NCBI GenBank assembly: GCA_017962605.1
Contig: JAGCUY010000007.1
Location: 752-64,751 of the forward strand
From: Kiritimatiellia bacterium
Lineage (GTDB): Bacteria > Verrucomicrobiota > Kiritimatiellia > RFP12 > JAAYLN01
DNA: 64,000 nt
Direction of reading: 5' to 3'
Each line of letters opens with the position of its first letter. Positions within the stretch are counted from its first letter, which is position 1. This document shows, piece after piece, positions 40,370-56,900 of this stretch. Below the pieces are notes generated by a model, which saw nothing but the letters and a program-made list of their open reading frames with translations, was not told the DNA's origin and made no database searches. A program made the position numbers and the translations under genes.

Positions 40370-40452
40370 TGGTTGTGAAAATGGAAAATTTGGCATATTT
40401 TGTGGTTGTGAAAATGTGAAAATCTGTATGTTTTATGGTTGTGAAAATGGAG
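40370..40452 (+). promoter_or_regulatory. Three ~31-bp direct repeats 'ggttgtgaaaatg' (iteron/operator-like) plus -10-like 'gatataat' upstream of the AAA ATPase
   Basis: 'ggttgtgaaaatggaaaatttggcatattttgtggttgtgaaaatgtgaaaatctgtatgttttatggttgtgaaaatggagcgaatatgatataat'. Confidence 0.4.
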
Positions 40453-40491
40453 CGAATATGATATAATATCTTGAATTTTGGGAGAATCTGC

Positions 40492-41862: not shown

Positions 41863-42029
41863 ACTTCCAACATCCTGCAGCCCGAACCGCATCCACCGGC
41901 ACGGCCACGGCGGCAAGTGCATCTGGTGCGGCTCAACCTCCACCGGCAGCGGGTGCCCATACTCCCCTACCCGCCGGCATGAACGGTAGAGGGCAGTGTG
42001 AACTTAGTCGCAATACTGTCTGAAGTTAA

Positions 42030-42310
42030 TCATTAGTCGTTAGCCGTTAGTCACTAGTCGTTAGTGGCTCGCACGGAGTGTATTCCCTATCGAATACTTT
42101 CCCGCACCGTAATCTATCGACTTCTCCGCACCGTGGTCTAGCGACCTTTCTGACCCGTAGTCTATCAATGTTTCCGCACTATAATCTATCGACATTCCCG
42201 CACGGTATAGTCTATCGACTTTTCCGAAACATGATCCAAAGTTTTTCCGAACCATGGTCTAATAATGTTTACGCTCCATGGTCTATTGGCATTTCCGAAC
42301 CATAGTCTTG
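42030..42310 (+). repeat. Second direct copy of the IR-R repeat
   Basis: 'cattagtcgttagccgttagtcactagtcgttagtggctcgcacggagtgtattccctatcgaatactttcccgcaccgtaatctatcgacttctccgcaccgtggtctagcgacc...'. Confidence 0.8.
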
Positions 42311-42314
42311 TGAA

Positions 42315-42410
42315 AGGGTGAGCCCTTCGGGCGAAGTTTGGAGGTTTGGCGCAATAGCGCCTTGGATGGTTGAGCCATTAGGGCGAAGTTTAGGAGTTTG
42401 GCGTGAAATC
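42315..42410 (+). repeat. 'gagcccttcgggcgaagtttggag' small repeat element (2 tandem copies)
   Basis: Further copies at 43116..43185 (same orientation) and 49275..49400 (inverted: 'ccaaacttccaaacttcgcccgaagggctcaaac'). Confidence 0.7.
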
Positions 42411-42423
42411 CTTTTTTTGTTTT

Positions 42424-42510
42424 TTTACCATGCGTTTCGTGGAAGTTTACAATTTTTTAACCATGCATTTCGTGGTAATATGACAATTTATTAACCACGC
42501 ATTTCGTGAT
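42424..42510 (+). repeat. Three ~31-bp direct repeats 'ttaaccatgcatttcgtgg' upstream of the truncated ATPase paralog
   Basis: 'accatgcgtttcgtggaagtttacaattttttaaccatgcatttcgtggtaatatgacaatttattaaccacgcatttcgtg'. Confidence 0.6.
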
Positions 42511-42517
42511 TGCTTGA

Positions 42518-43117
42518 TTGGCAAAAATATCGAAATATGATATTGTATTGGAGAGCAGCGCCCGTTTCCGCGAATACGAAGGTGCCTTCATGTGGCTAAA
42601 GGATGCCATGGTTGCAAATGTCGCCCTAAGCGTAACAGATCCGAACATTGGGTTTGACTTGAGCGCCGACGATGCCAAGATGAAATGCTACTTCCTTGAC
42701 ACGGGGCTTCTTGTCAGCCATGCGTTCAGCGAAAACGCGCTTGTCGCCGCCGACATCCACAAGAGAATTCTGTTTGATGACATCGAATTGAATGAAGGAA
42801 TGCTTGTTGAAAATGTCGTGGCCCAAATGCTATCTGCAGCCGGCCACAAGCTTTACTACTACTCAAATTCATCGCGGACCGATAGAGACTCCCGGATGGA
42901 AATTGACTTTCTCCTTGCCAGAAACACCCTGGGCGAGCGGAACAATGTTATTCCCGTTGAGGTGAAGAGCGGGAAGCGGACAACGCACCGTTCGCTAGAC
43001 AAGTTTCGCGCCAAGTTCGCAAACTACGTCCATACCCCTTGCATTCTTTCGCGGCGAGATTTAGAGATAAAGGACGGGATACTTTACCTCCCGCTCTACA
43101 TGACTCCATGTCTTTGA
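42518..43117 (+). pseudogene. N-terminally truncated paralog of the DUF4143 AAA ATPase (C-terminal ~200 aa only, no ATG)
   Basis: The ORF begins with TTG. It aligns to the C-terminal third of the 40492..41862 product ('FMWLKDAMVA' vs 'FLWLKEAGVA'; 'VIPVEVKSGKRT' vs 'VLPVEVKSGKHY'). Confidence 0.55.
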
Positions 43118-43316
43118 GCGCCGAAGTTTGGCGCTTACGCGCCCTTGATGTTTGAGCCATGCGGGCGAAGTTTGGAAATGGAGGATTGCGTGGCAGCGTG
43201 ATGGCAAAGGCTGGTTGCATTATTGCCGCTGTTTGCCTTTGAAGGGGCTTTTTTGATAAAATGAATATGTTGGAATTGCTTTATTTTTGAGAGTGAAAAA
43301 CAACGAGAACCAGGCA

Positions 43317-46300
43317 ATGAATAATTCATCTTTGCACCGCATCCCGCCAGCGGCCGCGCTGGCGCTGGCAGCGTTAGCCCTTTTTTGTGCCAACGCGGAG
43401 CCGCCGCGCTTCCTGGCCCCCATGCCGGGCAAGGAGGAGGAGAAGACGACTACCGACATCCTCCCCATCCCTCCCGAAGCGACCGAGGAGCAGAAGGAGG
43501 AGTATGAGAAGGTCATCGAAAAGGCCCGCACGGACGACGTGTCGGTGACAGACCAGGCCGCCCTCATGTATCGCGGCCTCGCCTGCCTAGTGGACGAGGA
43601 ATATGAGGAGTCCATCCCGTTCTTCGAGGAGGCCCTGCGTCGCGACCCCTCCCTCCAGGCCGCATGGGAGGGCCTTGGATGGGCCCATATCCGCATTGAT
43701 GACAAGAAGACCGCCAAGGCGATCTGGGATTATTTCCGCCGTTTGATGCCCGAACAGCCCCTTCCTTACGCCCTTCTCGGGCAAATGGCCGTCCTCGAAT
43801 ACGACTGGCCCCTCGCCGACAGGCACTTCAAAAAGTCCCTGGAGCTGAAGCCCGACCAGTTCGACGTGCGCTACTGGTACGCCCAGAACCTCATGCGCCT
43901 CGGCAAGGCCAGCGAGGCCGAGGACATCTTCCGCGCCCTCATAAAGCTTGAGCCGGACCGCCTCGACATCGAAATTGACCTCGCCGGCCTTCTCGTCCAG
44001 CGCCTCGAATACAACGAGGCCGTTGAAATATACCGCCGCGTTAACGACGAGATTCCCGACAACCCCCGCTTCCTGCTTGAAGAGGCCCTTCTGGAACTCA
44101 AGGTGGGCGAAGTGACCCGCGCCGACGAACTCTGCCAGCAAGTGCTGGAGCTTGAGCCGTCGAACCTTGACGCCATGCGCCTCCGCGCAGACATCGCGGA
44201 GATCGTCGGCCTGAACGACATATCCCCTCTCCGCGACCTGATCGACCAGACGGACGACCCACTCCAGAGGGCCGCGCTGCGCATCCGCCTCGCCAACCGC
44301 TGCCTCCTTGAAAACCGCAGCAAGCCGGGGCAGTATGAACAGGACATGATCCTCGGCCTGATCCACGACGCCATCAAGGACAACCCGGCCAGCGTGGAGT
44401 ACCGCATTCTCTACGCCCAGCTGCTTGTGATGGACAACCAGTACGCGAAGGCCCGCGCCGTCGCGAACGCCGTCCTCGAGCGCTTCAACCGCGCCAATTT
44501 CGACGCCAAGCAGGTCCTGCTTGAAGTCGATATGCGCGAATCCAAATACGATGACGCCCTCCAGGTTCTTTCCGACCTTTACAGCGGCCTTTCCGCCGAT
44601 GACCCGATGGCCCACTACTACCGCGCCCGCATCTACACCTTGCAGGGCCGCTACGCCGATGCCAAGCGCGAAATAGACTTCATTGAGGCCGCAGCCAGCC
44701 AGGGCGCGGTCCTCTCGCTCGTTTACACCGCCCTCACGGAGAGCGACTGGACGCCCGCCACATCGGTCCGCCGCCTCCACGAGCACATACTCGCCCTCCA
44801 GCAGGAGGGGTGGATACTCGTTCCGCCGGCGGAAATAGAGAGGCTGCTCCGCCCACCGGAAGGCGAGCGGCGCTCCGGCGGCGTGGCGAAGGAGTCAATA
44901 CCCCTGACGGCAAAGCTCGTCGATTACTTCCGCTGGTGCTTCACCGGTAAGAGGAAATACCCATCGGAGGATTCCTCCTCCGCGATCGCCAAGCCCAAGA
45001 AATACTTCACGGTGTTCTTCGACGGCGACCTTCGCTCCTCCCTCCTTCTCGGCAACGAAGTCGCCGAGGACTTCGGCGTGCCATTCGGCATTTTCGTGCC
45101 TACCGGCCCATCCAAGGAATACGTGCCGTCGCGCGCCGGTTGGGACGAACTCCGCGACTACGCCCAGTCTGGCAACTGGGTGGTTGGCAGCCAGCTTCAC
45201 TACGCCTATGAAAAGAAGCCCGTGGACAAGGACAGCCTAGACTGGCGCCCGCCGCTGCCGAACCGCATCTGGCTCCCCGAGAAGAACCGCATTGAGTCCA
45301 TGGGCGAGTGGGACAAGCGCGTCCGCACCGAGTTCCGCATGAGTCGCAACGTCCTCAGACACGAAATGGGCGCGGACGACTCGGCAGTGCCGATGGTCGC
45401 CTATCCCTTCAACGACGTCGGCCAGGCGGGAGCCTGCAACCTCTACTCCGTCCGCGACCCCATAGGCACCATCGTAGCCGAGGCGGCGCGCTCCTATCGA
45501 CTGGGCTTCGTCCAGAGCCAGAGCGGCTACACGCTCTACGGCGACAACCTCCTCCTCTGCCGCCGCTACGCTCCGAGCTGGACCGACGAGGGCGCGGACG
45601 TCGTCCGCCACGCCTACGAGTACCACCCGCTCTTCATCGCGCGCAAGCTACGTGCCGAAGTGGCGATGCTAATGAACCACCCGAACGAGGCGAACGCCAT
45701 GGCAGACGTCCTGAAGCGCGACGGCTATCCCGACGAACTTTGCCGCCAGCTGGATGCGGCCATCCACTCCCACTTCCAGAACAAGCCCACACGCGAGCGC
45801 CCGCCGCTCGTTGTCGAGGAGGACTACTACGACGACAACACCAACGTCGTCATCGCCTCCTCCGTCAACGAGGGGACCGGCAACCCGCTCATCAGATTTG
45901 ACCACCCGTTCGTTGGCGCGCTTGCAATGCACAGCAAGGCCAATGACCAGATAGAGACCTTCGAATACGGCGCCCGCGCCGGCATAGACCTCTCGCGCAA
46001 CACCACGCTGGCCTTCGAGTTCACCAACGGCCGCATGGAGCAGACGGTCCGGCCGCGCTGGGATGCCGTCATCATCACGAACGTCCCATACTCGAAGAGC
46101 AAGTACAAGTTCAAGATGGAAACCCAGACCATCAAGGGCACGCTCACGCACCGCAATGAGAGCGGCACCATCCTCTCCGCCACCCTTGGCATCGCGAAGA
46201 AGTCCCGGGTCTCCACTTCGGTCTCCCTCACGGACATCAACCTCCAGGACGATCTCAACTCGCACGTGTTCACGCTTGATGACGACGACTCAACCGTTGT

Positions 46301-46976
46301 CGGCGCGCTGGGCGCCCTCTGGAACCCCACTGACAACCTCCGCCTCCACTTCATCTACAGCCACGACTACGTGTCATCGGCGGTGAAGAACATCGACTAC
46401 CACGGCGTGAGCGCGAACATGCTGTGGAAGCCGGAGGACGGCTGGAACGTGAACAGCATGGTGCAGTACAGGACCTACAGCGACGACAACGCCTTCTACA
46501 ACGGCATGGTCGAATCCATGTGGGAGACAAGCCAGGACAGTGGCATCTGGGCCGGCCTGCAGCTCTCTACCGTCTCCACCAGCGAACCGCACGACTTCTA
46601 CTGGACACCGTATTGGGACCAGCGCGCCCTGGGCGTCCTCCGCTACACGCAGAACCGCGAGGGCTACCACCTTTCGCTCAGCCTCCTCGGCGGCCTCCAC
46701 CGGGACGAGGCGCGTTCGGACCGCCTTTACGAGACGGAGGTGACCCACGAGAAGGTCGTCGTGGTGGATGGTGTGGAAAATACCGTCAAGGAGACCGGAA
46801 CCGAATACGTGGTCATGGAGACCGGAGCCGCCGGGTGGCATAAGATCTGGGGCTTCTCCGCCAGCTACGAGAAAGACCTTTCCCCGAACTTCACGCTGAT
46901 CATGGAGGGGCAGGTCATGGCGCTGCGCGACTACATCGACCACATGGCGCTCGTCTATCTGCGCGTGAATTTCTAG
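43317..46976 (+). CDS. Single-polypeptide TPR + CE4 polysaccharide deacetylase + C-terminal outer-membrane beta-barrel (PgaA/PgaB-like fusion) exopolysaccharide export/modification protein
   Basis: ATG at 43317 gives signal peptide 'AAALALAALALFCANA'. About 450 aa of TPR helices follow. NodB-like 'KYFTVFFDGDLRSS'. The C-terminal ~400 aa have alternating beta-strand character, and the terminal 'YLRVNF' aromatic residue is typical of OM barrels. Confidence 0.55.
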   Translation: MNNSSLHRIPPAAALALAALALFCANAEPPRFLAPMPGKEEEKTTTDILPIPPEATEEQKEEYEKVIEKARTDDVSVTDQAALMYRGLACLVDEEYEESIPFFEEALRRDPSLQAAWEGLGWAHIRIDDKKTAKAIWDYFRRLMPEQPLPYALLGQMAVLEYDWPLADRHFKKSLELKPDQFDVRYWYAQNLMRLGKASEAEDIFRALIKLEPDRLDIEIDLAGLLVQRLEYNEAVEIYRRVNDEIPDNPRFLLEEALLELKVGEVTRADELCQQVLELEPSNLDAMRLRADIAEIVGLNDISPLRDLIDQTDDPLQRAALRIRLANRCLLENRSKPGQYEQDMILGLIHDAIKDNPASVEYRILYAQLLVMDNQYAKARAVANAVLERFNRANFDAKQVLLEVDMRESKYDDALQVLSDLYSGLSADDPMAHYYRARIYTLQGRYADAKREIDFIEAAASQGAVLSLVYTALTESDWTPATSVRRLHEHILALQQEGWILVPPAEIERLLRPPEGERRSGGVAKESIPLTAKLVDYFRWCFTGKRKYPSEDSSSAIAKPKKYFTVFFDGDLRSSLLLGNEVAEDFGVPFGIFVPTGPSKEYVPSRAGWDELRDYAQSGNWVVGSQLHYAYEKKPVDKDSLDWRPPLPNRIWLPEKNRIESMGEWDKRVRTEFRMSRNVLRHEMGADDSAVPMVAYPFNDVGQAGACNLYSVRDPIGTIVAEAARSYRLGFVQSQSGYTLYGDNLLLCRRYAPSWTDEGADVVRHAYEYHPLFIARKLRAEVAMLMNHPNEANAMADVLKRDGYPDELCRQLDAAIHSHFQNKPTRERPPLVVEEDYYDDNTNVVIASSVNEGTGNPLIRFDHPFVGALAMHSKANDQIETFEYGARAGIDLSRNTTLAFEFTNGRMEQTVRPRWDAVIITNVPYSKSKYKFKMETQTIKGTLTHRNESGTILSATLGIAKKSRVSTSVSLTDINLQDDLNSHVFTLDDDDSTVVGALGALWNPTDNLRLHFIYSHDYVSSAVKNIDYHGVSANMLWKPEDGWNVNSMVQYRTYSDDNAFYNGMVESMWETSQDSGIWAGLQLSTVSTSEPHDFYWTPYWDQRALGVLRYTQNREGYHLSLSLLGGLHRDEARSDRLYETEVTHEKVVVVDGVENTVKETGTEYVVMETGAAGWHKIWGFSASYEKDLSPNFTLIMEGQVMALRDYIDHMALVYLRVNF

Positions 46977-47030
46977 CCATAACCTGAAGATTTGGTAGCA
47001 TACTTAAGTTTTCTACAAGGAGAAGCAGTC

Positions 47031-49271
47031 ATGATTAAAGAAAAGGCAATTGAGATTTGGAGTTTCTTCCGCGCGGCCGGCGTGCTGCAGGCGGTAGTGG
47101 ACGCAAAGGCGTTCCGCGCGCTCAAGGAGCTGCCCAACGAGAACTGGGCCGTGCTGAGCTGCCCGACTACCGGGCTTGACTTCGATGCCCGCACGCTCTC
47201 CTTCATGGACGGCAACGGCGACGGCCACATCCGCATCGAGGAGGTCCTGGGCGCGCTCGCCTGGATGGAGAAGCGCATCGGCGACATGGCCGAGCTTCTC
47301 GACGAGAAGGACGAGGTCGCGCTGTCTTCGTTGTCCGGCACCGACGAGGGCAAGGCCCTCGCCGCTGCGGCGCGTGCTGTGCTGAAGGCCGTAGGCAAGG
47401 ATGGCGCCGCGTCGCTTTCATTGGCCGACGTGCTGGCCCGCTCCGCTTCGTTCAAGGCGGCCGACTTCAATGGCGACGGCGTCCTGGTTCCGGCGGCGGC
47501 CAAGGAAGCGGGCCTTGACGGGCTTATCGGCGAAATCCTCTCGGCCACCGGCGGCGTTTCCGACAGGAGCGGCGCCAACGGCGTGGACAAGGCGACCCTC
47601 GAGGCCTTCTACTCCGACTGCGCCGCATGGCTGGCCTGGCTGGACGCCGGCCGCGCCGACGCGGCGAAGACGCTTCCTCTCGGCGACGCCACCGAGGGCG
47701 CCGTCGCGGCGTTGGATGCCGTGCGCGCCAAGATCGACGACTTCTTCGGCCGCTGCGACCTGATCGCCTTCGACGGCGCGGCATCCGCGGCCCTCAACTG
47801 CGGGGAAGGGGACTACGCGGCAATCGGCAAGGAAGAGGTCGCCGCAGGCGCCGACGCCATCGCCGCCTTCCCGCTGGCCAAGGCCGCGGCTGGCGCGGCC
47901 CTCGACCTCGGCGGCGCCATCAACCCGCAGTGGCGCGCGAGGATCGACGACTTCATCGCCAAGGCGCTCAAGCCGACGCTCGGCGAAAAGGCATCGCTGA
48001 CGCGCGAGGACTGGGCGAAGGTCAAGGCGAACTTCGCTCCCTTCATCGCCTGGAAGGCGTCGGTCGCCGGCGCCCGCGTGGCGGGGCTTGGCGAGGCGCG
48101 TGTCCGCGAGATCGTCGCCGACGCCAAGGCGAAGGACACCCTCGTCGCCCTAATGGACAAGGACCTGTCCTACTCCGGCGAGATCGACCAGCTCGATGAC
48201 CTTGAGAAGTTCCTGCGCTACCACGCGAACCTCAACCGCTTCCTCAACAACTACGTCAATTTCTCCGACTACTACAACCCGGACCGCCCCGAGATATACC
48301 GCGCCGGACGCCTCTACATCGACGGGCGCGTCTGCCGGGAGTGCGTCTATGTGGCCGACGTCGGCGCGCACTCGACCCTCGCCGCGTCAAGCAAGATGTT
48401 CCTGGCCTACTGCAAGGTCACGCGGCCGCAGACGGGCGAGACGCGCACCATCTGCGCGGCGGTTACGGCGGGCTTCTCCTCGACGCTCTGGGTCGGCCGC
48501 AACGGCATCTTCTACGATGCGCAGGGCAACGATTGGAACGCCGTCATCATAAAGGTGTGCGAATGCCAGATCAGCCTGAAGGAAGCCTTCTGGGCGCCGT
48601 GGCTGAAGATCAGCGAGCTTATCAGCGACCAGATCAAGAAACTGCTCTCGTCCAAGGAGACGGCCATGATGTCGGCCGCGACGACCAAGGTCGGCACGAT
48701 TGGCGAGCAGCCGGCGGCCGCGCCTGCGGCGGAGCCGAAGCGCGACGGCGCCGCGATGGCCTCGTCGGTTGCGGCGATCGGCATTGCGATTGGCATCATC
48801 GGCTCGGCGATTGGCGGGCTGGTCTCCGCGCTGAAGGGCATCTCCTTCTGGTATGGCGTGCTTGGCGTGGCGGCAATCGTGCTTGCCGTGTCCGGTCCGT
48901 CGGTTATCCTGGCCTGGTTCAAGCTGCGGTCGCGTGACTTCGCGCCGGTGCTGAACGCATGCGGCTGGGCCATCAACAAGAAGATGCTCATGCCGATGCG
49001 CCTCTCTCGCGTCTTCACGCACGAGGCGGTCATCCCGGTTGGCTCCAACATCAAGCTCGAAGACCCCTATGTCGAGAAGCACTTCTGGCGCAAGACGCTC
49101 ATCGTGGTCCTTGTTCTGGCGGGGTTGGGATTCTGGGTTTGGAAGTGGCACAACAACTGGCTGCCGGAGTCGCTACAGCGCAAGGCCCCCGTCGCCGAGC
49201 AGGCGGCGGAGGCCGCGCCCTGCGCCGACGAAGCCCCGGCTGAACAGCCGGCAGAGCCTAAGGCTGACTAG
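47031..49271 (+). CDS. Hypothetical membrane protein with EF-hand-like Ca-binding loops and C-terminal TM helices
   Basis: RBS 'aaggag' plus ATG at 47031. 'DGNGDGHIRIEE' and 'DFNGDGVLV' are EF-hand-like loops. The C-terminus has 'IGIAIGIIGSAIGGLVSAL' and two further TM helices, plus an acidic tail. Confidence 0.4.
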   Translation: MIKEKAIEIWSFFRAAGVLQAVVDAKAFRALKELPNENWAVLSCPTTGLDFDARTLSFMDGNGDGHIRIEEVLGALAWMEKRIGDMAELLDEKDEVALSSLSGTDEGKALAAAARAVLKAVGKDGAASLSLADVLARSASFKAADFNGDGVLVPAAAKEAGLDGLIGEILSATGGVSDRSGANGVDKATLEAFYSDCAAWLAWLDAGRADAAKTLPLGDATEGAVAALDAVRAKIDDFFGRCDLIAFDGAASAALNCGEGDYAAIGKEEVAAGADAIAAFPLAKAAAGAALDLGGAINPQWRARIDDFIAKALKPTLGEKASLTREDWAKVKANFAPFIAWKASVAGARVAGLGEARVREIVADAKAKDTLVALMDKDLSYSGEIDQLDDLEKFLRYHANLNRFLNNYVNFSDYYNPDRPEIYRAGRLYIDGRVCRECVYVADVGAHSTLAASSKMFLAYCKVTRPQTGETRTICAAVTAGFSSTLWVGRNGIFYDAQGNDWNAVIIKVCECQISLKEAFWAPWLKISELISDQIKKLLSSKETAMMSAATTKVGTIGEQPAAAPAAEPKRDGAAMASSVAAIGIAIGIIGSAIGGLVSALKGISFWYGVLGVAAIVLAVSGPSVILAWFKLRSRDFAPVLNACGWAINKKMLMPMRLSRVFTHEAVIPVGSNIKLEDPYVEKHFWRKTLIVVLVLAGLGFWVWKWHNNWLPESLQRKAPVAEQAAEAAPCADEAPAEQPAEPKAD

Positions 49272-49274
49272 CCT

Positions 49275-49400
49275 GGCGCCTCCGCGCCAGACATCTAAAC
49301 TTCCCAGGCGCGCCAACGCCAAACTTCCAAACTTCGCCCGAAGGGCTCAAACTTCCAGGGCGCGCTAGCGCACACTTCTCGCCCTTTCGGGCAAGGGAAA
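49275..49400 (-). repeat. Inverted copy of the 'gggcgaagtttgg' repeat element
   Basis: 'ccaacgccaaacttccaaacttcgcccgaagggctcaaacttccagggcgcgc' is the reverse complement of the 42315/43116 copies. Confidence 0.7.
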
Positions 49401-49634
49401 CACCCTTCTGTCTGAAAGATTTTTCCATAATATCGCATTTTGAGGAGCGAGGAGGCGAGGCAATTCGCTACGAAAAGTGTGTCGTAGGCTGGATAATTCG
49501 CTACGAAAAGTGTTGCTGGGTGGATGGACCTTAGAAAGTCTGGCGGCGAACTCTACTATAGGCGTGACTATTCCGCCCACCTGAACGAATACAGCGGAAT
49601 CTTCACCATGATGAATATTTCGGTGCATTGTCCC

Positions 49635-49662
49635 TTGACAGAAGGGCAGAAAATGTGATATT
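49635..49662 (+). promoter_or_regulatory. Sigma70-like promoter (TTGACA-16-tgtGATATT) upstream of hipB-like gene
   Basis: 'ttgaca' at 49635 and 'gatatt' at 49657. ATG at 49673 gives a very short leader. Confidence 0.35.
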
Positions 49663-49672
49663 CTTCAATATA

Positions 49673-49888
49673 ATGAAAATTGATGAGATAGGATCGTTTC
49701 TTGCACAACGGCGCAAGTCGCTGAAAGTCTGCCAGCGGGATTTGGCGGCCTTGAGCGGCGTTTCCGAACACGCGCTTGTCAATCTGGAACGCGGCATCGG
49801 CAACCCCACCCTAAAACTTGTCAATGCGGTGGCCGATGCATTGGGACTTGAACTTAACCTTTCCGTGAAGGACCAGGAGGCGACATGA
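49673..49888 (+). CDS. hipB: XRE-family HTH antitoxin (HipB-like)
   Basis: HTH 'LKVCQRDLAALSGVSEHALVNLERG'. It lies immediately upstream of the HipS/HipT-like genes. Confidence 0.6.
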   Translation: MKIDEIGSFLAQRRKSLKVCQRDLAALSGVSEHALVNLERGIGNPTLKLVNAVADALGLELNLSVKDQEAT

Positions 49889-50202
49889 AATGCGTTACGG
49901 TTTATGTGAAGGGGGTCGAGGCCGGTGTGCTTGCCCGCTTTCGAAACGGCAGCTATGAATTCCGCTATACGCGCCGTTATCAGGAAAGCGCGAGGCCGTC
50001 GGTAGCCTTTTCCCTTCCAAAGCGCAAGGCCGTTCATCGCTCGGCAAAGTTGTTCCCTTTCTTTTTTGGGCTGCTTGCCGAGGGCGAGCAGAAGCGAATG
50101 CAGTGCCGGACATTGCGGATTGACGAAAACGATCATTTTTCCCGCCTTGCGGAGACCTGCAGGGAGGGGACAATAGGAGCCGTGTATGTCCTCCCGCGCT
50201 AA
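49885..50202 (+). CDS. hipS: HipS-like protein (stand-alone HipA N-terminal subdomain)
   Basis: 105 aa; RBS 'caggagg'. It corresponds to the HipA_N region and overlaps the downstream kinase by 17 nt. Confidence 0.6.
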   Translation: MKCVTVYVKGVEAGVLARFRNGSYEFRYTRRYQESARPSVAFSLPKRKAVHRSAKLFPFFFGLLAEGEQKRMQCRTLRIDENDHFSRLAETCREGTIGAVYVLPR

Positions 50203-51097
50203 AGTCCCTGATACACTGCCGTTCACTAAAGCGGACCTGAGGCTTCCGGTTATCGCGCGAAAGGGACGGCGAAACTCAATTTCCGGAGTTCAGCCCAAGG
50301 TTTTGCTTTCGATTGTCAAGGGTGAACTTGCGGTTGTGGAGACCGGTGGTGACTTCATTCTCAAGCCCGCTCCGGAGGATTCCCGCGCCAAGTTTCTGTC
50401 GGACATTCCGGCAAACGAGCACTTGACGATGACAATCGCATCACGGCTGTTTCGAATCCAAACGGCGGAAAACAAATGTGTCCGCTTTGCCGACGGGGAA
50501 CTCGCGTACCTTACTCGCCGTTTTGACCGCAGGGGCGGCGAAACCCTCAGACAAGAGGATCTTTGCCAGATTGCCGGGCGCAGCGAGGAAACCCATGGCG
50601 AGTCCTACAAGTATGACTTCAGCTACGAGGAAATGGCCGACATCATCCGAATGGCCTGCCCAGCCTGTCGCGTGGAACTGCCGAAGGTCTTTCGGCAGAT
50701 TGTATTCGACTACATTTTTGCCAACGGCGATGCCCACTTGAAGAATTTCTCAGTCTATGAAAGCAAACTGGGCGACTATGTGATGACGCCTGCCTACGAT
50801 TTGCTCAACACTTTTTTGCATTATCCGGGCGACCCAACATTCATGGCATTGTCCCTTTTTGGCGATCCTGATTTCATGACGCCGGAGTTTGAGCATCTTG
50901 GCTATTACTCGACACCGGACTTTGTGGCATTGGGGCGGGCCTATGGGCTTGACGATCGGGCCGTTTGCAGGATTCTGGATGAATTCAAGACGAATTCAAA
51001 AAAGGTGGAATTGATGGTCAGGGACTCCCTTTTGTCCGAAGATGCGAAAAAGGAATACCTTTGCATCTTCTACGACCGCCTCGCAATGTTTCGCTGA
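50186..51097 (+). CDS. hipT: HipT-like Ser/Thr kinase toxin (HipA C-terminal kinase core)
   Basis: P-loop-like 'ISGVQPKVLL' and catalytic 'GDAHLKNFSV' (DxHxKN) are present. Confidence 0.7.
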   Translation: MSSRAKVPDTLPFTKADLRLPVIARKGRRNSISGVQPKVLLSIVKGELAVVETGGDFILKPAPEDSRAKFLSDIPANEHLTMTIASRLFRIQTAENKCVRFADGELAYLTRRFDRRGGETLRQEDLCQIAGRSEETHGESYKYDFSYEEMADIIRMACPACRVELPKVFRQIVFDYIFANGDAHLKNFSVYESKLGDYVMTPAYDLLNTFLHYPGDPTFMALSLFGDPDFMTPEFEHLGYYSTPDFVALGRAYGLDDRAVCRILDEFKTNSKKVELMVRDSLLSEDAKKEYLCIFYDRLAMFR

Positions 51098-51175
51098 TAT
51101 GCCGGCGAGATGGCGGCACGGTCATGCGGCTGCAATGAAGTGACTTGAGGCTTCCAAAAATCTGCGGGAAATGCC

Positions 51176-52957
51176 CTATTTCGCCGTGAGGGCGGGGTCG
51201 GCGTAGGCCCCTTCGCCTGTCGGCGGGAAATACCAGGTGATGAATGAAGGCGGCGAGAAGTTGACGCCGTCGTCCGCCACGCATATCACGTCGGCTCGGC
51301 AGGACTCGACTCCGAAGGGGGTGGCGAACGGCGACTCGTGGCGCTTGATGTTGATTTCAACCATGCGGCCATTCGGGGCAAGTTCGCGTATGGCGATTTT
51401 GTCCTGGTCGCCCTGTCCCACGAACCAGTGGAAGACAAGGTCCTTGTTGTTTTCGGGGAAGAGGGCGGAGACGACCATCTTGCGGCTGTCGGGCTTGGCG
51501 CGCCAGACGCGCGCGATGGCGAATGGAGAGTCGAAGATCCGTTCGCCGCGCTTGTCGTCGTAGTCGCGGCCGGGGACGAACGATGCGGACTCGTCGGCGA
51601 GGATCCGCAGGGGCGCGATCGGCGGCAGGGCGTTGGTTTCAATCGAGTGGGCGAGCATGGCCAGACGCAGGGTGTCGATGGCTTTGCCGTTGAATATGAC
51701 CGGGTGCGCAGCGGGCGTGAGGTAGTCGGCGCGGCGAACGACATTGGTCTGCGCCATGCGGAGGAGATACTGGAGGGTAGGGGCTATGTGGCCATGCGCT
51801 GCGAGGGCGTCCTTGGTCTCGGGGCGGAATGCTGCGAGGGCGGTTGCGAGGCAGGCGAGGATCGGTCGGTCGGTCCAGGATGAGCCGGGTGCGATGAAGA
51901 GGTATGGCGTGCGGGAGGGGAAGACGTCGCCGTGGATGGAGGGGAGGTAGTCGTGGTGCTGTGGATAGACGTAGGTGGTGTTGGAGAGGTATTGCTGTAG
52001 GAGTATGTGAGGGAATTCGTTCTGGAGCCTGCGGGCGCACGACCCCCACAGCGGGCCGGAGGTGTTGGCCGTGGAGGAGTTGCCGATTGCGATGCGGCCG
52101 GGGAAGTTGAAGAGCGAGACGCCGGTGTCGGTGCCCGCGTCGCGGGATTCCGCGCAGTGCGTGGTAGGAGTGAGGCCGGTGAATGGAGTGACGTCGAGTT
52201 TGGAGTGGCCCCGGTCGTGGTTGTCGTAGAGGTCGCCGGCGTTGCCGGAGGCGGTGCCTTCGGACAGCCATGCGTTGATGGCGGCGCCGGTCTTGCCGGG
52301 GATGGCGGTGGAGCGCGGTGCGTATAGGACTGATGGGGAGCGCGGCGTGAAGAGAGTTGAGAAGCCGCCCGCTTCCATGTTCCATACGGTGTTTGATGTG
52401 GTGATTGGCGCGGTGAGTTCGACCGCGAGGGGATGCGGGGTGCCGGGAACGGTCTCCGGGTGTTCGTGGTTGGAGCGGATGATGGTGAGCGCCCGCTGGA
52501 AGGCCGGATCCCGGCGGAGGAGCGCGAGGTCGGTGTCGGCTGCGGCGCCGTCGGCATCGGAGAAGCCGAGAATCGCCGCGGCGAGGAGCGCGGTGCGGGC
52601 CTCTGGGATTTGGCCGAGGCGGGTCTTGGCGCAGGCGAGGTTGTAGCGCCAGATGGGGTCGCGCGGGAAGAACGATACGGCGTTGGAGCTGATTGTCTCC
52701 ATGGCCGCGTAGTCTGAAGCGGCCATCGCGCGCTTGAAGTCCGCCAGTAAAGCGTTGTGGGCGGGGAATGCCTCCTGGAGTCCAAAGACGGTGGTGGCGG
52801 GAGGAAGGTAGATTGTGTTTTGCGCCTTTGGCTCCTCGGCGGCCTGAGTCGCCTCTGGCGACGATGCCTGGGCCTCGGCGGCCCCAGGCCCACTCTGGCC
52901 AAACGCAATTTGGCCATTGATACAGGCGATGACGAGGAGAGTGGCTGCGAACTTCAT
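51176..52957 (-). CDS. Secreted hypothetical protein
   Basis: ATG at 52957 gives signal peptide 'MKFAATLLVIACINGQIAFGQ' (the track start at 52984 is GTG). No recognised domain. Confidence 0.4.
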   Translation of the reverse strand: MKFAATLLVIACINGQIAFGQSGPGAAEAQASSPEATQAAEEPKAQNTIYLPPATTVFGLQEAFPAHNALLADFKRAMAASDYAAMETISSNAVSFFPRDPIWRYNLACAKTRLGQIPEARTALLAAAILGFSDADGAAADTDLALLRRDPAFQRALTIIRSNHEHPETVPGTPHPLAVELTAPITTSNTVWNMEAGGFSTLFTPRSPSVLYAPRSTAIPGKTGAAINAWLSEGTASGNAGDLYDNHDRGHSKLDVTPFTGLTPTTHCAESRDAGTDTGVSLFNFPGRIAIGNSSTANTSGPLWGSCARRLQNEFPHILLQQYLSNTTYVYPQHHDYLPSIHGDVFPSRTPYLFIAPGSSWTDRPILACLATALAAFRPETKDALAAHGHIAPTLQYLLRMAQTNVVRRADYLTPAAHPVIFNGKAIDTLRLAMLAHSIETNALPPIAPLRILADESASFVPGRDYDDKRGERIFDSPFAIARVWRAKPDSRKMVVSALFPENNKDLVFHWFVGQGDQDKIAIRELAPNGRMVEINIKRHESPFATPFGVESCRADVICVADDGVNFSPPSFITWYFPPTGEGAYADPALTAK

Positions 52958-52988
52958 CGGATGCTGGATGCAGGATCTTTTCACGCTT

Positions 52989-53933
52989 TTACACTTTCAC
53001 GTTTTCCGCCAGGTTCCTTAGTATGGCGGGTGTGACGTCGGCGATGGACGTGCAGGATGAGAGGAGTGCGTCTGCGCCAGGGCCAGTGGCGATCAATGGC
53101 ACAGGGTTGAGGGTGTGGGTCTTCATCGCGATGGCCTCGATGTTGCCATGATCTGAAGAAAGCGCCGTGGAGATGCCCATTTCCGTGGCGAGGGGAAAGA
53201 GTGCGCCCAGGAAGGCGTCGAGGGTGCGCAGGACTGCGCATGCTGCTTCGTATGATCCAGAGTGGCCGACCTGGTCTGTGAGGAAGTATTCGAAAAGGGT
53301 GTAGTCGTAGCCCAGTGCGAGTTGGACGAGATGGTCAGCGGCTTCCTGAGGCGTGACGGTTGGCCCGTCGTAGCCCTTGGAAGCAAGGGATTCGCGGGTG
53401 ATGTCGTGGAGAAGTGCCTGGTTGTGGAGAAGGTCTGCGCGGAAGGAGAGCGTTTCGGGGACGGTGAGCGCGGCCGTGGTGGTCACGGAGCGGAAGCGGC
53501 GGGCGCGGAGTTCATCGGGGGAGTCGGCGAGGTAGGCGTCGGCAAAGCGTGCGCGGCGGCCATCGGCCTTGAGCATGGTGAAGATGTTTGATTCCTCTAC
53601 GAATGCGCGCAGGGTCGGCCCCGGGAAGCCTGTCACGTGGCGGCCCATGAAGGCCGCGGCGTTGCGGCCGCAGAAGAGCGCGGCCTGTCCGGTGGCGCTC
53701 TGGGGAAGTCCGGGAACGCCGAGGCAGGCGTCGAGCGGAACGCAGTGCGAGGCGAGCAGTTCGCAAATGGCGGGGCAGACCTCCGGGCGGATTGGATTGT
53801 CCGCCGCCGGAGCCCCGAGGCCGAAGCCATCTACGAATATGAAAAGCTGCTTCACGGTTGATGTTGGGTTTCTGCTCTGCGCCTGTTCGCCGCGCCGGGC
53901 GACGCGGCTATGTCGATTACAGAATAGCAACAA
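52989..53933 (-). CDS. Alkaline-phosphatase-superfamily metalloenzyme (iPGM/phosphopentomutase-like)
   Basis: 'LFIFVDGFGLG' and 'SSDHGNIE' are metalloenzyme-domain signatures. The start is uncertain: TTG at 53933, or GTG at 53855 ('VKQLF'). Confidence 0.45.
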   Translation of the reverse strand: MLLFCNRHSRVARRGEQAQSRNPTSTVKQLFIFVDGFGLGAPAADNPIRPEVCPAICELLASHCVPLDACLGVPGLPQSATGQAALFCGRNAAAFMGRHVTGFPGPTLRAFVEESNIFTMLKADGRRARFADAYLADSPDELRARRFRSVTTTAALTVPETLSFRADLLHNQALLHDITRESLASKGYDGPTVTPQEAADHLVQLALGYDYTLFEYFLTDQVGHSGSYEAACAVLRTLDAFLGALFPLATEMGISTALSSDHGNIEAIAMKTHTLNPVPLIATGPGADALLSSCTSIADVTPAILRNLAENVKV

Positions 53934-53954
53934 TCCCTTCTGAAGTCAAGAAGC

Positions 53955-53987
53955 TTGGAAAACCGATGCCATGCGGAATGGTATAAT
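53955..53987 (+). promoter_or_regulatory. Promoter with extended -10 'TGgTATAAT' (TTGGAA -35) giving a leaderless start at 53995
   Basis: The 21-nt stretch 'aatggtataatagatgccatga' is nearly identical to 'aatggtataattgtgccatga' at 23907. Confidence 0.45.
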
Positions 53988-56900
53988 AGATGCCATGAGA
54001 CATACCGCGATTGCCATTCTTTCAGCTCTCTACCTGCTCGCTTTTTTCGCGGCTGGCGCGGCTCCCGAGGCCCGCGTCCTGCCATTTGAACGGGCGGCGT
54101 GGGAGAAATACCATCCGCTGGGTGGCGAGTTCGTGGACGGCCGCTATGTCTCGCTGCATGAGCAGGCGCCATCCTTCGAGGTGTCGCGGCTCGTGCCGCC
54201 GTCGGCCAATTTGGCCGTGGAGGCCACCTTCACGCCGGAGCGAAAGGCCGCCAAGGCCGACGGCACCGCCGCGATATCAATCTTCGAGTCGCCAGGCCAC
54301 TACTGGGATCTGGCGCTTTACGAGTCCAAGCCAGGCAAGCGCTCCATCGCCATGTCGGAGCGCAGCGGAACATCGCAAGTGCACTCCGCGCTGAAGATGG
54401 AGGCCGACATCGGCGCTGGCGCCACCTGGGAGTGGGGCCGCGCCTACAGCCTCCGCCTCGCCATCGACGGCAAAGGCGTCCAGGGCGAAGTGCGCGACGC
54501 GGAGAGCGGCGAGCTTCTCTTCCGCCGGCGCTACGCGCTTGCGCCGGGGCATATCGCCTCCGGCCGCCCCGCATTCAGGTTCAACCGCGTCATCGGCAAC
54601 TTCTCGGGCATAAAGGCGACGGTGAATGAAGCAGATTCACACAGAGCCACAGAGGCACAGAGAAGTTCATTGCCCTCAAATCATGAAACAAATCTCTGTG
54701 GCTCTGTGTCTCTGTGTGAGGAGAATAAAAAATTCTATCGCACAACGTGCGCCGAGGACGGGCGCTGGTGGTTCGTGGATCCCGATGGGAAGCGCTTCTT
54801 CCTCTCCGGCATCGGCGTGGTGTCGCACAACGGCTTCTTCAACTCGGCGCTTGGCTACGCCCCATACGCCCGCACAGTCGCCCGCAAGTATCCGACGCTT
54901 GACGACTGGGCCACCAACTCCCTCGCGCGCATCCGCTCATGGGGCTTCAACTTCCTCTCCTCGCCTTCGGCCATCCTCCTGCGGCGCGGCTTCCCGCACG
55001 CCCACGTCATCAACATCGGCCAGAACTTCGCCTGCTACGGCGACGAGTTCGACATCCTCCCCTGCGATGGCGGCCCGTGCTCTGGTTTTCCGAACGTATT
55101 CCATCCGCTCTTCAAGGAATACTGCCGCTTCCGAGTGCGGTCTTTCTGCACGGCCGACCGCGACGACCCCTGGACTCTAGGCTGGTATATCGACAACGAG
55201 CTATCATGGTGGGGCGACAAGCGCAAGTTCAAGACTCCGCCTGCGCGTGGCCTTTTCGACGCCGCCGCCCGCAAGGCGCCCGACCATCCGGCGCGCAAGG
55301 CCCTGGAGGCGTTTTTGGAAGAGTGGAACAATTCACACAAAGATACAGCGTCACATAGGGGTTCATTGTCCACCAATGCCAGTACAAATCTCTGTGTCTC
55401 TGTGTCTCTGTGTGACATTGAGAACATCCCCGTTGAAGTGACCCGCGAGTTCGTGCGGCTCGTGGCCCGCAAGTATTTCGAGGCCACGACAGCCGCGATA
55501 CGCGAGGTCGATCCCAACCACCTGATCCTCGGCTGCCGCTTCGCCGGCTTCGGCTCCGCAGACCCCGTCGTCTGGGAGGAGTGCGGGCGCTTCTGCGACG
55601 CCATCTCGGTGAACAGCTACCCGATGGTCGATCTCGACCGCGGGATTGCGGTGAGCGGCTTCGAGCGGCACGACCGTCCAATCGCCGACATCATCCGCGA
55701 ACGCGCGCGTCCTGCCGGCAAGCCGGTAATCATGACGGAATGGGGCTTTTCGGCGCTCGACTCCGGACTTCCCTGCACGCACGGCGCTGGGCAGCGCTTC
55801 TTCACGCAGAGGGAGCGGGCGGAGGCGACCTCGATCTTCGCCCGCACGATGTGGGCCTTGCCCGAGTGCGCCGGGTATGTCTATTTCATGTGGTGCGACG
55901 AACCGGCTGTCGGCAAGAACGGCCCAAAGAGCGAAAACACCAACTATGGCCTCGTCAACGCCGACGACGAGCCATACGAGGAGCAGGTGGCCGCGCTGTC
56001 CGCAGTGCAGCTGCATCCCGAAGAGTCGCGCCACGCGCCGCTGCCCGAGGCTCGCGAGGTCGTCCCGCCCAGTGCCGCAGAGATGGCCTCGAGGTTTGGA
56101 CGCGTGGAGTCGCAGGACATCTCCATTGGCGTGGCGAGCTCTCATGGCGCGCAGCGTGGCATCTCCATTGGCGGCGGCACGCTCACGCTGGCTCTTCGTG
56201 GGGATGGGAACGGCGCCTTTGAGGCCGATGTGCGCCTCCACCGCATTGCCGGGAGGTCATTTGTCATGGCCGAACTGCTTGCGGTGCGCAACTGCGGCGT
56301 GGAGCCAATGACTTTCGACGCGGCAACCTTCCAGTTCCTGCCCGCCGACGAGGCCGCAGTCGCGGGCACTGCGCCGGCGCGCGGCGACGACGTCTTTGCG
56401 CCGCCGGCCGATGGCCAGCCAACGCCGATCCCGCCAATGCTGTGGCGGCCGTGGCAGTCCGGCGCGTGGGTGCTGCCCGACGGCAACATCCTCGGCATGC
56501 TCTCGCCGCGCACCGTCGGCGTATCCATCAAGTTCCGCAAGGATGACGCCCTCCACGGCGACGCCGAGTATAAATGCGGAAGCCTCACCCTCGCCCCAGG
56601 CAGGGAGTGGAAGCCGCAGCATGCGCCATTCGTGATTGCCGCGGCCTTGTCGGGCGGCGAGGATGCCTGGCGCGACCTCTGCGCCGAAATCCGCGCAGCC
56701 GCCACCTTTCAAACTCCCGCAACCTTTTCCCTAACCATCGACCCCTCCCGCATCCTTGGCCCGGTGAAGCCGGTGAACGGCGTGGGGCAGCCGCCGATTC
56801 TCGGGCTTCGCAAGTATTCGATGTTCCGCTACCTCAAGGAGGCGGGCGTCCCTTTCTCGCGCCTTCATGACGTGGGTGGAATGTTCGGGCGCGGAATCTT

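What the first reader, a model, noticed from the sequence alone, without database searches (positions are those of the whole stretch)
49673..51097. Tripartite HipB-HipS-HipT kinase toxin-antitoxin module
An XRE HTH gene is followed by a 105-aa HipA-N-terminal-subdomain protein and a 303-aa HipA-kinase-core protein ('ISGVQPK', 'DAHLKNFS'), with overlapping stop/starts. This split architecture matches HipBST, where HipS rather than HipB neutralises the kinase, and not classical HipBA. The module lies just outside an inverted small-repeat element and has lower G+C.
Basis: partly seen in the sequence, partly recalled or inferred. Interest (0 to 1): 0.55.

Follow-up and report, generated by a model that had tools for sequence, protein, structure and literature searches.

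The report
Ordinary HipBST kinase toxin-antitoxin module
This is an intact three-gene HipB-HipS-HipT kinase toxin-antitoxin cassette, probably acquired horizontally by a rumen Kiritimatiellae bacterium; it belongs to a family already described and catalogued in this phylum, so it is a correct but ordinary finding.

Summary
Window 49673-51097 carries three co-oriented genes with overlapping stops and starts: hipB (71 aa, HTH_3), hipS (105 aa, full-length Couple_hipA) and hipT (303 aa, HipA_C). The best solved-structure matches are HipT and HipS of Legionella and E. coli O127, far above HipA. All kinase motifs are intact, including S31-I-S33, K60, D182 and D205.

The hipB-hipS-hipT order recurs in 75 of 80 related genome loci across PVC and FCB phyla, and on a conjugative plasmid. 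All three genes are under purifying selection (dN/dS 0.06-0.15). GC3 is 0.60-0.64 against 0.75-0.87 in neighbouring genes, and flanking genes differ between close relatives. This points to a mobile unit of about 1.5 kb.

Three details are new:
- Two TTCA-N6-TGAA palindromes, at -71 and at -9 over the hipB ATG, bracket a sigma-70-like promoter.
- The same 61-bp operator period recurs across the family, with half-sites that co-vary between clades.
- HipS has Glu, not Trp, at the E. coli Trp65 wedge position.

HipS acting as antitoxin and the kinase's target are inferred, not shown. Lin et al. 2023 already list a HipBST system in Kiritimatiella. Verdict: a new member of a known kind, of low to moderate interest.

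The parts
49602..49615 (.). Distal candidate HipB operator (O2), the palindrome TTCACCATGATGAA (TTCA-N6-TGAA), at -71 from the hipB ATG
   Evidence: Exact TTCA-N6-TGAA sits at -70/-71 in the PVC-clade relatives. A sequence-agnostic test finds the proximal 14-mer recurring at -70+-1 or -131+-1 in 33 of the 37 loci with a match of at least 11/14; only 2 loci reach that with a control 14-mer. DNA similarity to L006 and L010 begins here.
49635..49662 (+). Sigma-70-like promoter: TTGACA (49635-49640), 16-nt spacer, GATATT (49657-49662) preceded by TG (extended -10)
   Evidence: Consensus scan gives 10 of 12 matches with TG. The TTGAC and TG-n-(G/T)AT elements are kept in L006 and L010. The function is inferred.
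49664..49677 (.). Proximal candidate HipB operator (O1), the palindrome TTCAATATAATGAA, covering -9 to +5 and so the hipB start codon
   Evidence: The site lies 1 nt after the -10 box, so the predicted transcript has a leader of no more than about 4 nt and no Shine-Dalgarno sequence (inference).
49673..49888 (+). hipB: 71-aa XRE/Cro-type HTH protein, the predicted autorepressor
   Evidence: HTH_3 at 2.5e-9. TIGR03070 couple_hipB scores 55 bits, below its 71.65 cutoff. dN/dS is 0.15 against L006. The ATG start is conserved, whereas the upstream extension is closed by a stop at -3 in L019 and L023.
49875..49880 (+). Shine-Dalgarno sequence AGGAGG, 4 nt before the hipS ATG
   Evidence: Read directly from the sequence.
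49885..50202 (+). hipS: 105-aa homologue of HipA N-subdomain 1, the predicted antitoxin. E66 matches E. coli HipS E63; E68 sits at the Trp65 position.
   Evidence: Couple_hipA 8.5e-18. HipS(Lp) 2.4e-11, HI_0666 1.1e-5, HipS(Ec) 7.6e-5. dN/dS is 0.06-0.09. Column analysis.
50175..50179 (+). Shine-Dalgarno sequence AGGAG, 6 nt before the hipT ATG and inside the 3' end of hipS
   Evidence: Read directly from the sequence.
50186..51097 (+). hipT: 303-aa HipA-type Ser/Thr kinase core lacking N-subdomain 1, the predicted toxin. Key residues: P-loop S31-I32-S33-G-V-Q-P-K38, K60, RxDR 112-115, K142/Y143, D182/H184/N187, D205.
   Evidence: HipA_C 1.2e-41. HipT(Lp) 1.2e-27, HipT(Ec O127) 1.2e-23, HipA 5e-8. 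Motif conservation across 86 sequences. dN/dS is 0.074. Similarity to relatives ends at the stop codon.

Best explanation
Window ~49600-51097 is a self-contained, horizontally mobile, tricistronic HipBST type II toxin-antitoxin module in a rumen Kiritimatiellae genome.

Shown here:
- The three genes are homologues of HipB (HTH), HipS (HipA N-subdomain 1) and HipT (HipA core kinase). They are intact and under purifying selection.
- They are syntenic across many phyla.
- All catalytic and P-loop residues of an active, autophosphorylating Hip kinase are present.

Inferred from the characterised E. coli O127 and L. pneumophila systems:
- Free HipT phosphorylates an essential translation-related protein and arrests growth. 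That protein is an aminoacyl-tRNA synthetase such as TrpS in the E. coli type, and is unknown in the Legionella type.
- HipS binds where N-subdomain 1 sits in HipA and holds the SIS Gly-rich (P) loop in the ejected, ATP-incompatible state. Here it must do so without the Trp65 wedge, because the equivalent residue is Glu68.
- HipB does not neutralise the toxin. It represses the operon.

Inferred from comparative footprinting here:
- HipB dimers bind two TTCA-N6-TGAA palindromes 62 bp apart that bracket the promoter.
- The proximal palindrome covers the transcription start region and the hipB ATG.
- hipB is translated from a leaderless or near-leaderless mRNA. hipS and hipT are translationally coupled through the 4-nt and 17-nt overlaps and have their own Shine-Dalgarno sites.
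For: - Domains.
- Solved-structure sequence matches: HipT(Lp) 1.2e-27 and HipT(Ec) 1.2e-23 against HipA 5e-8. HipS(Lp) 2.4e-11.
- Catalytic residues are invariant, and the SIS motif is present in 78 of 86 aligned sequences.
- Synteny: the exact protein lies on independent contigs with the same neighbours. Relatives at 75-80% identity keep the 105-aa and 303-aa genes and the 17-nt overlap in different flanks. 75 of 80 genome loci are ordered triads; 3 more are cut by contig ends. The same triad sits on a conjugative Runella plasmid.
- Selection: dN/dS 0.06-0.15 for all three genes.
- Composition: GC3 0.60-0.64 against 0.75-0.87 in neighbours. Similarity to relatives is limited to ~49600-51097.
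- Operators. Evenly spaced operators bound by HipB have been shown experimentally in Legionella (PMC10653801).
- Mechanism in homologues: PMC10627512 and PMC10653801.
- A HipBST 'LP'-type system is already listed for Kiritimatiella glycovorans.
Against: - No experiment exists on any member of this PVC/FCB clade.
- The kinase is only about 30% identical to either characterised HipT.
- HipS lacks the Trp that is essential in E. coli HipS. It carries an acidic residue shared with only four of the related loci in the 85-sequence alignment, so the details of neutralisation are uncertain.
- HipB gives no significant match to solved HipB structures and is below the TIGR03070 cutoff.
- The HipT(Lp) target is not TrpS or GltX, so the target here cannot be predicted.
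- The promoter and the leaderless start are consensus-based inferences. No terminator was found.
Confidence: 0.85

Rival explanations
1. hipS plus hipT is a classical hipA gene broken by a frameshift. On this view the locus is a decaying HipBA module in which HipB would have been the antitoxin.
For: HipS plus HipT together are co-linear with HipA. The two ORFs overlap out of frame by 17 nt.
Against: - The identical split (105 aa, 303 aa, 17-nt overlap) is kept in relatives at 75-90% identity. A separate hipS ORF is present in 77 of 80 loci from many phyla.
- Both halves show dN/dS of 0.06-0.09.
- hipT has its own ATG and AGGAG.
- The kinase scores about 65 bits higher against HipT than against HipA.
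Confidence: 0.02
2. The module belongs to the other group of short Hip kinases: clade XI hipJS/hipIN-type systems, or the PADLOC candidate defence system PDC-M03. It would then work as those do.
For: Weak PADLOC hits: PDC-M03A at 1.4e-7 for the kinase and PDC-M03B at 7.4e-6 for HipS. Clade XI kinases are also short and lack N-subdomain 1.
Against: - Gene order here is HTH, then hipS, then kinase. In hipJS and hipIN the HipS-like gene lies downstream of the kinase and there is no HipB.
- The PDC-M03A match is 29 bits over residues 78-205 only, against 100 bits over the full length for HipT(Lp).
- There is no HIRAN domain.
Confidence: 0.03
3. The architecture is HipBST, but the biology differs from the growth-arrest/persistence model. 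The cassette might act mainly as an abortive-infection phage defence or as a plasmid/island addiction module. HipB might also take part in neutralisation through a HipB-HipT contact.
For: - Relatives occur on 19 plasmids, including a conjugative one.
- The flanks vary and the composition is foreign.
- Hip-like kinases appear among candidate defence systems.
- HipB(Lp) binds HipT(Lp) directly.
- TA systems have been proposed as phage defences (PMC8262856).
Against: - No phage record carries a relative.
- The window neighbours are not defence genes.
- In both tested systems HipS alone neutralises the toxin.
- This rival concerns the biological role and is compatible with the molecular mechanism in the best explanation.
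Confidence: 0.1

Closest known systems
HipBST of Legionella pneumophila (Lpg2368-2370; PDB 7VKB, 7WCF, 8EZR)
   Same: - Same hipB-hipS-hipT order, with a HipS of about 100 aa and a HipT of about 310 aa.
- It is the best solved-structure match for both HipT (1.2e-27) and HipS (2.4e-11).
- HipS lacks the Trp wedge.
- It has several evenly spaced palindromic HipB operators overlapping the promoter.
- The literature assigns FCB-group and Kiritimatiella systems to this subtype.
   Different: - Identity is only about 30-34%.
- The P-loop here is S-I-S, as in E. coli; in Lp it is S-V-Q.
- The operator period here is 61-62 bp with 14-nt sites, and the proximal site covers the start codon. In Lp the gaps are 53 bp and O1 lies 24 nt upstream of the start.
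- HipT here is about 24 residues shorter at the N-terminus.
- My NJ trees do not resolve an Lp affiliation from an Ec affiliation.
HipBST of enteropathogenic E. coli O127:H6 (PDB 7AB3-7AB5), and the H. influenzae and T. auensis homologues
   Same: - Tricistronic organisation.
- S-psi-S dual-serine P-loop.
- RxDR motif, catalytic Asp and Mg-binding Asp.
- The HipS Glu63 equivalent (E66) is conserved.
   Different: - HipS Trp65, which is essential for neutralisation in E. coli, is Glu68 here and is never Trp in the 81 related HipS sequences.
- HipS similarity is weak (7.6e-5).
- HipT is 303 aa here against 335 aa.
- TrpS as the target is unverified here.
HipBA of E. coli K-12 (HipA, 440 aa)
   Same: Same kinase fold family and catalytic motifs. 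An HTH partner gene lies upstream. Repression works through palindromic operators.
   Different: - In HipA, N-subdomain 1 is fused to the kinase and HipB is the antitoxin.
- Here the subdomain is a separate gene.
- The kinase core is 24% identical to the HipA core, with E = 5e-8.
- The operators are not TATCC-N8-GGATA.
hipJS / hipIN (Gerdes clade XI) and the PADLOC candidate system PDC-M03
   Same: A short core kinase paired with a separate HipS-like protein.
   Different: - The HipS-like gene lies downstream of the kinase.
- There is no HipB.
- HipN carries a HIRAN domain.
- Only weak partial profile matches were found.

Membership tests
HipBST (HipT family, Gerdes clade III) | Tricistronic operon in the order HTH gene (hipB), hipS, kinase gene (hipT) | tested here: met
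   The same order is found in 75 of 80 related loci.
HipBST (HipT family, Gerdes clade III) | The kinase lacks the ~100-aa N-subdomain 1 of HipA and is 291-346 aa long | tested here: met
   The kinase is 303 aa, and only 3 more codons are open upstream. The alignment to HipA starts at HipA residue ~122. Pfam finds HipA_C only.
HipBST (HipT family, Gerdes clade III) | HipS is a ~100-aa homologue of HipA N-subdomain 1 encoded immediately upstream of the kinase | tested here: met
   Couple_hipA 8.5e-18 over the full length. It matches the HipS chains 7VKB_B, 7CZO_A and 7AB4_B, and HipA residues 7-105.
HipBST (HipT family, Gerdes clade III) | [quoted passage not shown] | tested here: met
   G34/Q36/K38, K142-Y143, D182-x-H184-x-x-N187 and D205 are invariant or nearly so, and align to the HipT(Lp), HipT(Ec) and HipA residues.
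HipBST (HipT family, Gerdes clade III) | [quoted passage not shown] | tested here: met
   S31-I32-S33 are present, and SIS occurs in 78 of 86 aligned sequences. Phosphorylation itself cannot be tested here.
HipBST (HipT family, Gerdes clade III) | The kinase is phylogenetically closer to HipT than to HipA or the clade XI kinases | tested here: inconclusive
   It is clearly closer to HipT than to HipA: 100 and 87 bits against 36 bits, and the tree agrees. Clade XI was tested only indirectly, through the weak PDC-M03A hit. Reference clade XI sequences were not retrieved.
HipBST (HipT family, Gerdes clade III) | HipS, not HipB, neutralises HipT; HipT alone is toxic | not testable with these tools
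   Shown for E. coli O127 and L. pneumophila only.
HipBST (HipT family, Gerdes clade III) | HipB is a DNA-binding autorepressor acting on palindromic operators at the promoter | tested here: inconclusive
   The HTH domain is present. Two conserved, positionally fixed palindromes bracket the promoter, and their half-sites co-vary across clades. Binding itself was not tested.
HipBST, E. coli O127 subtype | A HipS Trp65 wedge inserted beside the Gly-rich loop | tested here: not met
   The residue is Glu68 here. In the alignment, Trp occurs only in the E. coli and H. influenzae references.
HipBST, L. pneumophila subtype (Lin et al. 2023) | Clusters with HipST(Lp) rather than HipST(Ec) in a concatenated HipS+HipT tree | tested here: inconclusive
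   NJ bootstrap for window+Lp, window+Ec and Lp+Ec is 23, 19 and 58. HipS alone favours Lp at 55 to 37. The literature lists the K. glycovorans system as 'HipBST LP'.
Classical HipBA | A single ~440-aa HipA with N-subdomain 1 fused to the kinase | tested here: not met
   Two separate, conserved and selected ORFs.

The most novel reading that the evidence does not exclude
The PVC/FCB-wide clade this module belongs to is about 30% identical to both characterised HipTs and has no experimentally studied member. It could be a functionally distinct HipBST subtype in three respects:
- A cellular target other than TrpS or GltX, as already suspected for HipT(Lp).
- Neutralisation by HipS without any bulky wedge residue; here an acidic Glu68 sits next to the phosphorylatable SIS loop.
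- A regulatory design in which the proximal HipB operator contains the start codon of a leaderless hipB mRNA, tying repression and translation initiation to the same 14 bp.
Probability: 0.35. Interest if true: 0.4.

Novelty: new member of a known kind. Interest (0 to 1): 0.22.

Why it matters
The practical value is mostly in annotation. NCBI labels these genes only 'HipA domain-containing protein' and 'HipA N-terminal domain-containing protein', but they can be named hipBST with confidence.

The comparative data also show that the HipBST family is very common in rumen and gut Kiritimatiellae and in Bacteroidota. They give a testable operator model: a 61-bp period, clade-specific half-sites, and a start codon inside the proximal operator.

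The finding does not open a long-standing question. The still-unknown target of the non-E. coli HipT kinases is the one point where studying this clade could teach something new.

Tried and rejected
1. CCCTT-N5/6-AAGGG palindromes at 49382-49397 and 49632-49646 as operators. There are 3 in the window against 0.23 expected. I rejected them because they are not conserved in L006 or L010. The TTCA-N6-TGAA sites are conserved.
2. The 86-aa HipB reading from TTG 49628, which some gene callers chose for relatives. I rejected it for three reasons: the extension would include the -35 and -10 boxes; it is closed by a stop at -3 in L019 and L023; and the GTG/ATG at -18 fits an extended -10 TG.
3. A third operator at about -132 in the window. 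There is none, although many Bacteroidota relatives have one.
4. Resolving an Lp-type from an Ec-type affiliation with NJ trees of HipT, HipS and the concatenation. This stayed unresolved. A first bootstrap script timed out.
5. Rfam scan of 40000-54000. Nothing relevant was found.
6. Search for an intrinsic terminator after hipT. None was found, and the fold z-score is -0.7.
7. Phage records. No relative was found.
8. tRNA or other integration landmarks. There are no tRNA genes in the window.
9. HipB against solved HipB structures. No hit at E <= 0.01.
10. The 44-aa ORF at 49524-49658, called on some contigs. It overlaps the operator and promoter region and has no support, so I treated it as spurious.
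Full report
OBSERVATION

- hipB runs 49673-49888. It is 71 aa from the ATG; a longer 86-aa reading from TTG 49628 is also open.
- hipS runs 49885-50202 (105 aa).
- hipT runs 50186-51097 (303 aa).
- The hipB stop and the hipS start share ATGA. hipS and hipT overlap by 17 nt, out of frame.
- hipS is preceded by AGGAGG (49875-49880) and hipT by AGGAG (50175-50179).
- The quoted motifs, NSISGVQPK and GDAHLKNFS, are both there.

DOMAIN AND HOMOLOGY TESTS

Pfam gives HTH_3 (2.5e-9) for the first protein. The second gets a full-length Couple_hipA match (8.5e-18, profile positions 2-98 of 99). The third gets HipA_C (1.2e-41). NCBIfam agrees: couple_hipA at 1.9e-20, and couple_hipB at 55 bits, which is below its 71.65 cutoff.

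Matches to solved structures, by sequence:

| Query | Chain | E-value |
|---|---|---|
| Kinase | HipT, L. pneumophila | 1.2e-27 |
| Kinase | HipT, E. coli O127 | 1.2e-23 |
| Kinase | HipA | 5e-8, first two thirds only |
| 105-aa protein | HipS, L. pneumophila | 2.4e-11 |
| 105-aa protein | H. influenzae HI_0666 | 1.1e-5 |
| 105-aa protein | HipS, E. coli O127 | 7.6e-5 |
| 105-aa protein | HipA residues 7-105 | 0.014 |

The kinase matches to HipT cover the full length.

ACTIVE-SITE ANATOMY

I aligned 86 kinases: the window, 81 related loci, HipT(Lp), HipT(Ec) and the HipA(Ec) core. Every functional position is conserved:
- P-loop S31-I32-S33-G34-x-Q36-x-K38. SIS is present in 78 of 86 sequences.
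- K60 and E78.
- R112-x-D114-R115.
- K142-Y143.
- D182-x-H184-x-K186-N187.
- D205.

In HipS, E66 corresponds to E. coli HipS E63 and is conserved in 83 of 85 sequences. The position of E. coli Trp65 is the wedge that is essential for neutralisation there (PMC10627512). It is Glu68 in the window. Across the family it is V, A, I, E, T, S and others, and never Trp. In the alignment, Trp occurs only in the E. coli and H. influenzae references. In this respect the family resembles L. pneumophila HipS, which neutralises by P-loop ejection without a Trp (PMC10653801). Its P-loop, however, is the S-psi-S type of E. coli rather than the S-V-Q of Legionella.

SOURCE AND DISTRIBUTION

The exact HipT sequence is MBP5542596.1, annotated 'MAG: HipA domain-containing protein [Kiritimatiellae bacterium]'. 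It lies with the same neighbours on several ruminant-gut metagenome contigs.

The kinase has thousands of relatives: 6,884 scored E <= 1e-10 among the 8,000 candidates examined. Relatives at 75-80% identity keep a 105-aa hipS, a kinase of 303 or 309 aa and the 17-nt overlap, but sit between entirely different flanking genes.

A scan of species-representative genomes returned 80 loci. They come from Kiritimatiellia, Verrucomicrobiota, Lentisphaerae, Planctomycetota, Cloacimonadota, Ignavibacteria, many Bacteroidota and a few others. Of these:
- 75 are complete, ordered hipB-hipS-hipT triads.
- 3 are cut by contig ends.
- 2 have hipS-hipT but no detectable hipB homologue.

Nineteen plasmids carry relatives. 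On the conjugative Runella slithyformis plasmid pRUNSL02 the same triad is generically annotated by PGAP. No phage record carries one.

SELECTION AND COMPOSITION

Against the relative L006, dN/dS is 0.15 for hipB, 0.086 for hipS and 0.074 for hipT. All three are real genes under constraint, and the split is not a recent frameshift.

hipBST has GC 0.53-0.56 and GC3 0.60-0.64. The flanking genes have GC 0.62-0.66 and GC3 0.75-0.87. DNA similarity to L006 and L010 begins at about 49600 and ends at the hipT stop codon. The transferable unit is therefore about 1.5 kb.

A sigma-70-like promoter lies just upstream of hipB: TTGACA at 49635-49640, a 16-nt spacer, then TG-n-GATATT ending at 49662. Two TTCA-N6-TGAA palindromes bracket it:
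- TTCACCATGATGAA at 49602-49615, which is -71 from the hipB ATG.
- TTCAATATAATGAA at 49664-49677, which is -9 to +5 and so contains the hipB ATG.

In the PVC-clade relatives, exact copies sit at the same two positions, -70/-71 and -9. The motif density is 2.26 per kb in the upstream segments against 0.054 per kb in the rest of the loci.

I also ran a sequence-agnostic test, asking whether each locus's own 14-mer at -9 to +5 recurs upstream. It found matches of at least 11/14 in 37 of 71 loci. Of those 37, 33 fall at -70+-1 or -131+-1. With a control 14-mer taken from inside hipB, only 2 loci reach 11/14.

The half-sites differ between clades: TTCA/TGAA in PVC, and CACA/TGTG, TGCA/TGCA or TTCG/CGAA in Bacteroidota. 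The 61-bp period is kept throughout. That is the pattern expected of operators co-evolving with their HipB. The window has two sites and no third.

There is no Shine-Dalgarno sequence, and the -10 box ends 10 nt before the ATG. I therefore infer a leaderless or near-leaderless hipB mRNA. Upstream in-frame extensions are not conserved; L019 and L023 have stops at -3.

Legionella hipBST likewise has three evenly spaced HipB-bound operators, with 53-bp gaps, and its O1 lies 24 nt upstream of the start. The principle is therefore known. The geometry here is a variant of it.

CLASSIFICATION

By the published criterion this is a HipBST module (PMC8262856). That criterion is family equals gene organisation, with clade III defined as hipBST and a 291-346-aa kinase lacking N-subdomain 1.

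NJ trees place the window and the 80 loci in one clade. That clade is far from the HipA core and about equally distant (30%) from HipT(Lp) and HipT(Ec). The subtype is not resolved by HipT alone or by the HipS+HipT concatenation. HipS alone leans toward Lp.

Lin et al. found 'HipBST-Lp' homologues widely across the FCB group. Their supplementary table lists Kiritimatiella glycovorans as 'HipBST LP'. Gerdes et al. include a Lentisphaerae HipS. The family is therefore already documented in this phylum and superphylum.

The weak PADLOC hits to PDC-M03A/B reflect distant kinship with kinase-plus-HipS-like candidate defence systems. They do not indicate membership, because the gene order differs and HipB is present here.

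MECHANISM: SHOWN VERSUS INFERRED

Shown:
- Homology of the three proteins, intact catalytic residues, synteny, selection and foreign composition.
- Conserved, positionally fixed palindromes.

Inferred from homologues:
- HipT is a growth-arresting Ser/Thr kinase regulated by P-loop autophosphorylation.
- HipS is the antitoxin, acting by P-loop ejection.
- HipB is the autorepressor and may join a HipB-HipT-HipS-DNA complex.

Unknown:
- The target. It is TrpS in the E. coli type. In Legionella it is neither TrpS nor GltX.

SURROUNDINGS

The 'inverted small-repeat element' consists of REP-like units of about 50-75 nt. One lies at 49297-49371 on the + strand. Inverted copies lie at 43123-43177 and, as two tandem copies, at 42311-42404. 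They bracket the TPR gene and the 759-aa gene. hipBST lies about 230 bp beyond the + copy. Nothing links these repeats to hipBST in the relatives.

The neighbouring genes are a 759-aa membrane protein, a 602-aa protein with no Pfam match and a metalloenzyme-superfamily protein. None is a defence or mobility gene.

VERDICT

Both the observation and the interpretation are correct. The module is an ordinary, intact and probably horizontally acquired member of the HipBST family, not a new kind of system. The modest additions are the operator and leaderless-start model and the non-Trp (Glu68) HipS position. Interest is 0.22.

Noticed in passing
window 42311-42404, 43123-43177, 49297-49371: REP-like intergenic repeat units of about 50-75 nt, with core AAACTTCGCCCGAAGGGCTCAAAC. 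The window holds 4 copies against 0 expected. Three are on the - strand and one on the + strand. The 43123-43177 and 49297-49371 pair (87% over 47 nt) brackets the 1229-aa TPR gene and the 759-aa gene. Whether this is a composite element or a set of dispersed REP-like repeats is unknown.
   Followed up: partly
window 39946-43117: A low-GC (0.42-0.54) stretch holds an AAA_14+DUF4143 ATPase gene (40471-41862) and a truncated DUF4143 copy (42518-43117). Each is preceded by the same architecture. First come 24-nt tandem arrays (39966-40248 and 42096-42308, with a 213-nt block 84% identical between the two). Then come 33/34-nt tandem arrays (40369-40451 and 42420-42508). These iteron-like arrays are unexplained.
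   Followed up: partly
window 49453-49480 and 49486-49513: A 28-nt direct repeat, two copies 33 nt apart. The 19-nt core AATTCGCTACGAAAAGTGT is identical in both and is found nowhere else in the window. It lies between the REP-like unit and the hipBST distal operator, and its function is unknown. It is not part of the hipBST unit conserved in relatives.
   Followed up: partly
window 49632-49646; L006 and L010 at the equivalent position: Each of three close relatives has a different short GC-rich palindrome overlapping the -35 box. The window has CCCTTgacagAAGGG, L006 has GCGGC-N10-GCCGC and L010 has CGTCcGACG. This could be chance in GC-rich DNA or a second regulatory feature.
   Followed up: no
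window 49885-51097 proteins against PADLOC: HipS and HipT give weak hits to the two components of the candidate defence system PDC-M03: B at 7.4e-6 and A at 1.4e-7. This suggests PDC-M03 is a pair of a Hip-type kinase and a HipS-like protein, possibly the hipIN/hipJS type of Gerdes et al.
   Followed up: no
L027, L038, L041, L053, L063, L081, L083 and others (Bacteroidota relatives), upstream of hipB: Many Bacteroidota hipBST loci carry CACATTATAATGTG-type palindromes at -9, -70 and/or -131. This is three operators at a 61-bp period, with the hipB ATG inside the proximal site. Codon 2 of hipB therefore co-varies with the operator half-site.
   Followed up: partly
L045 and L085: Two related loci have hipS-hipT but no ORF similar to the window's HipB at E < 1e-3 upstream. 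They may have a divergent or replaced regulator.
   Followed up: no
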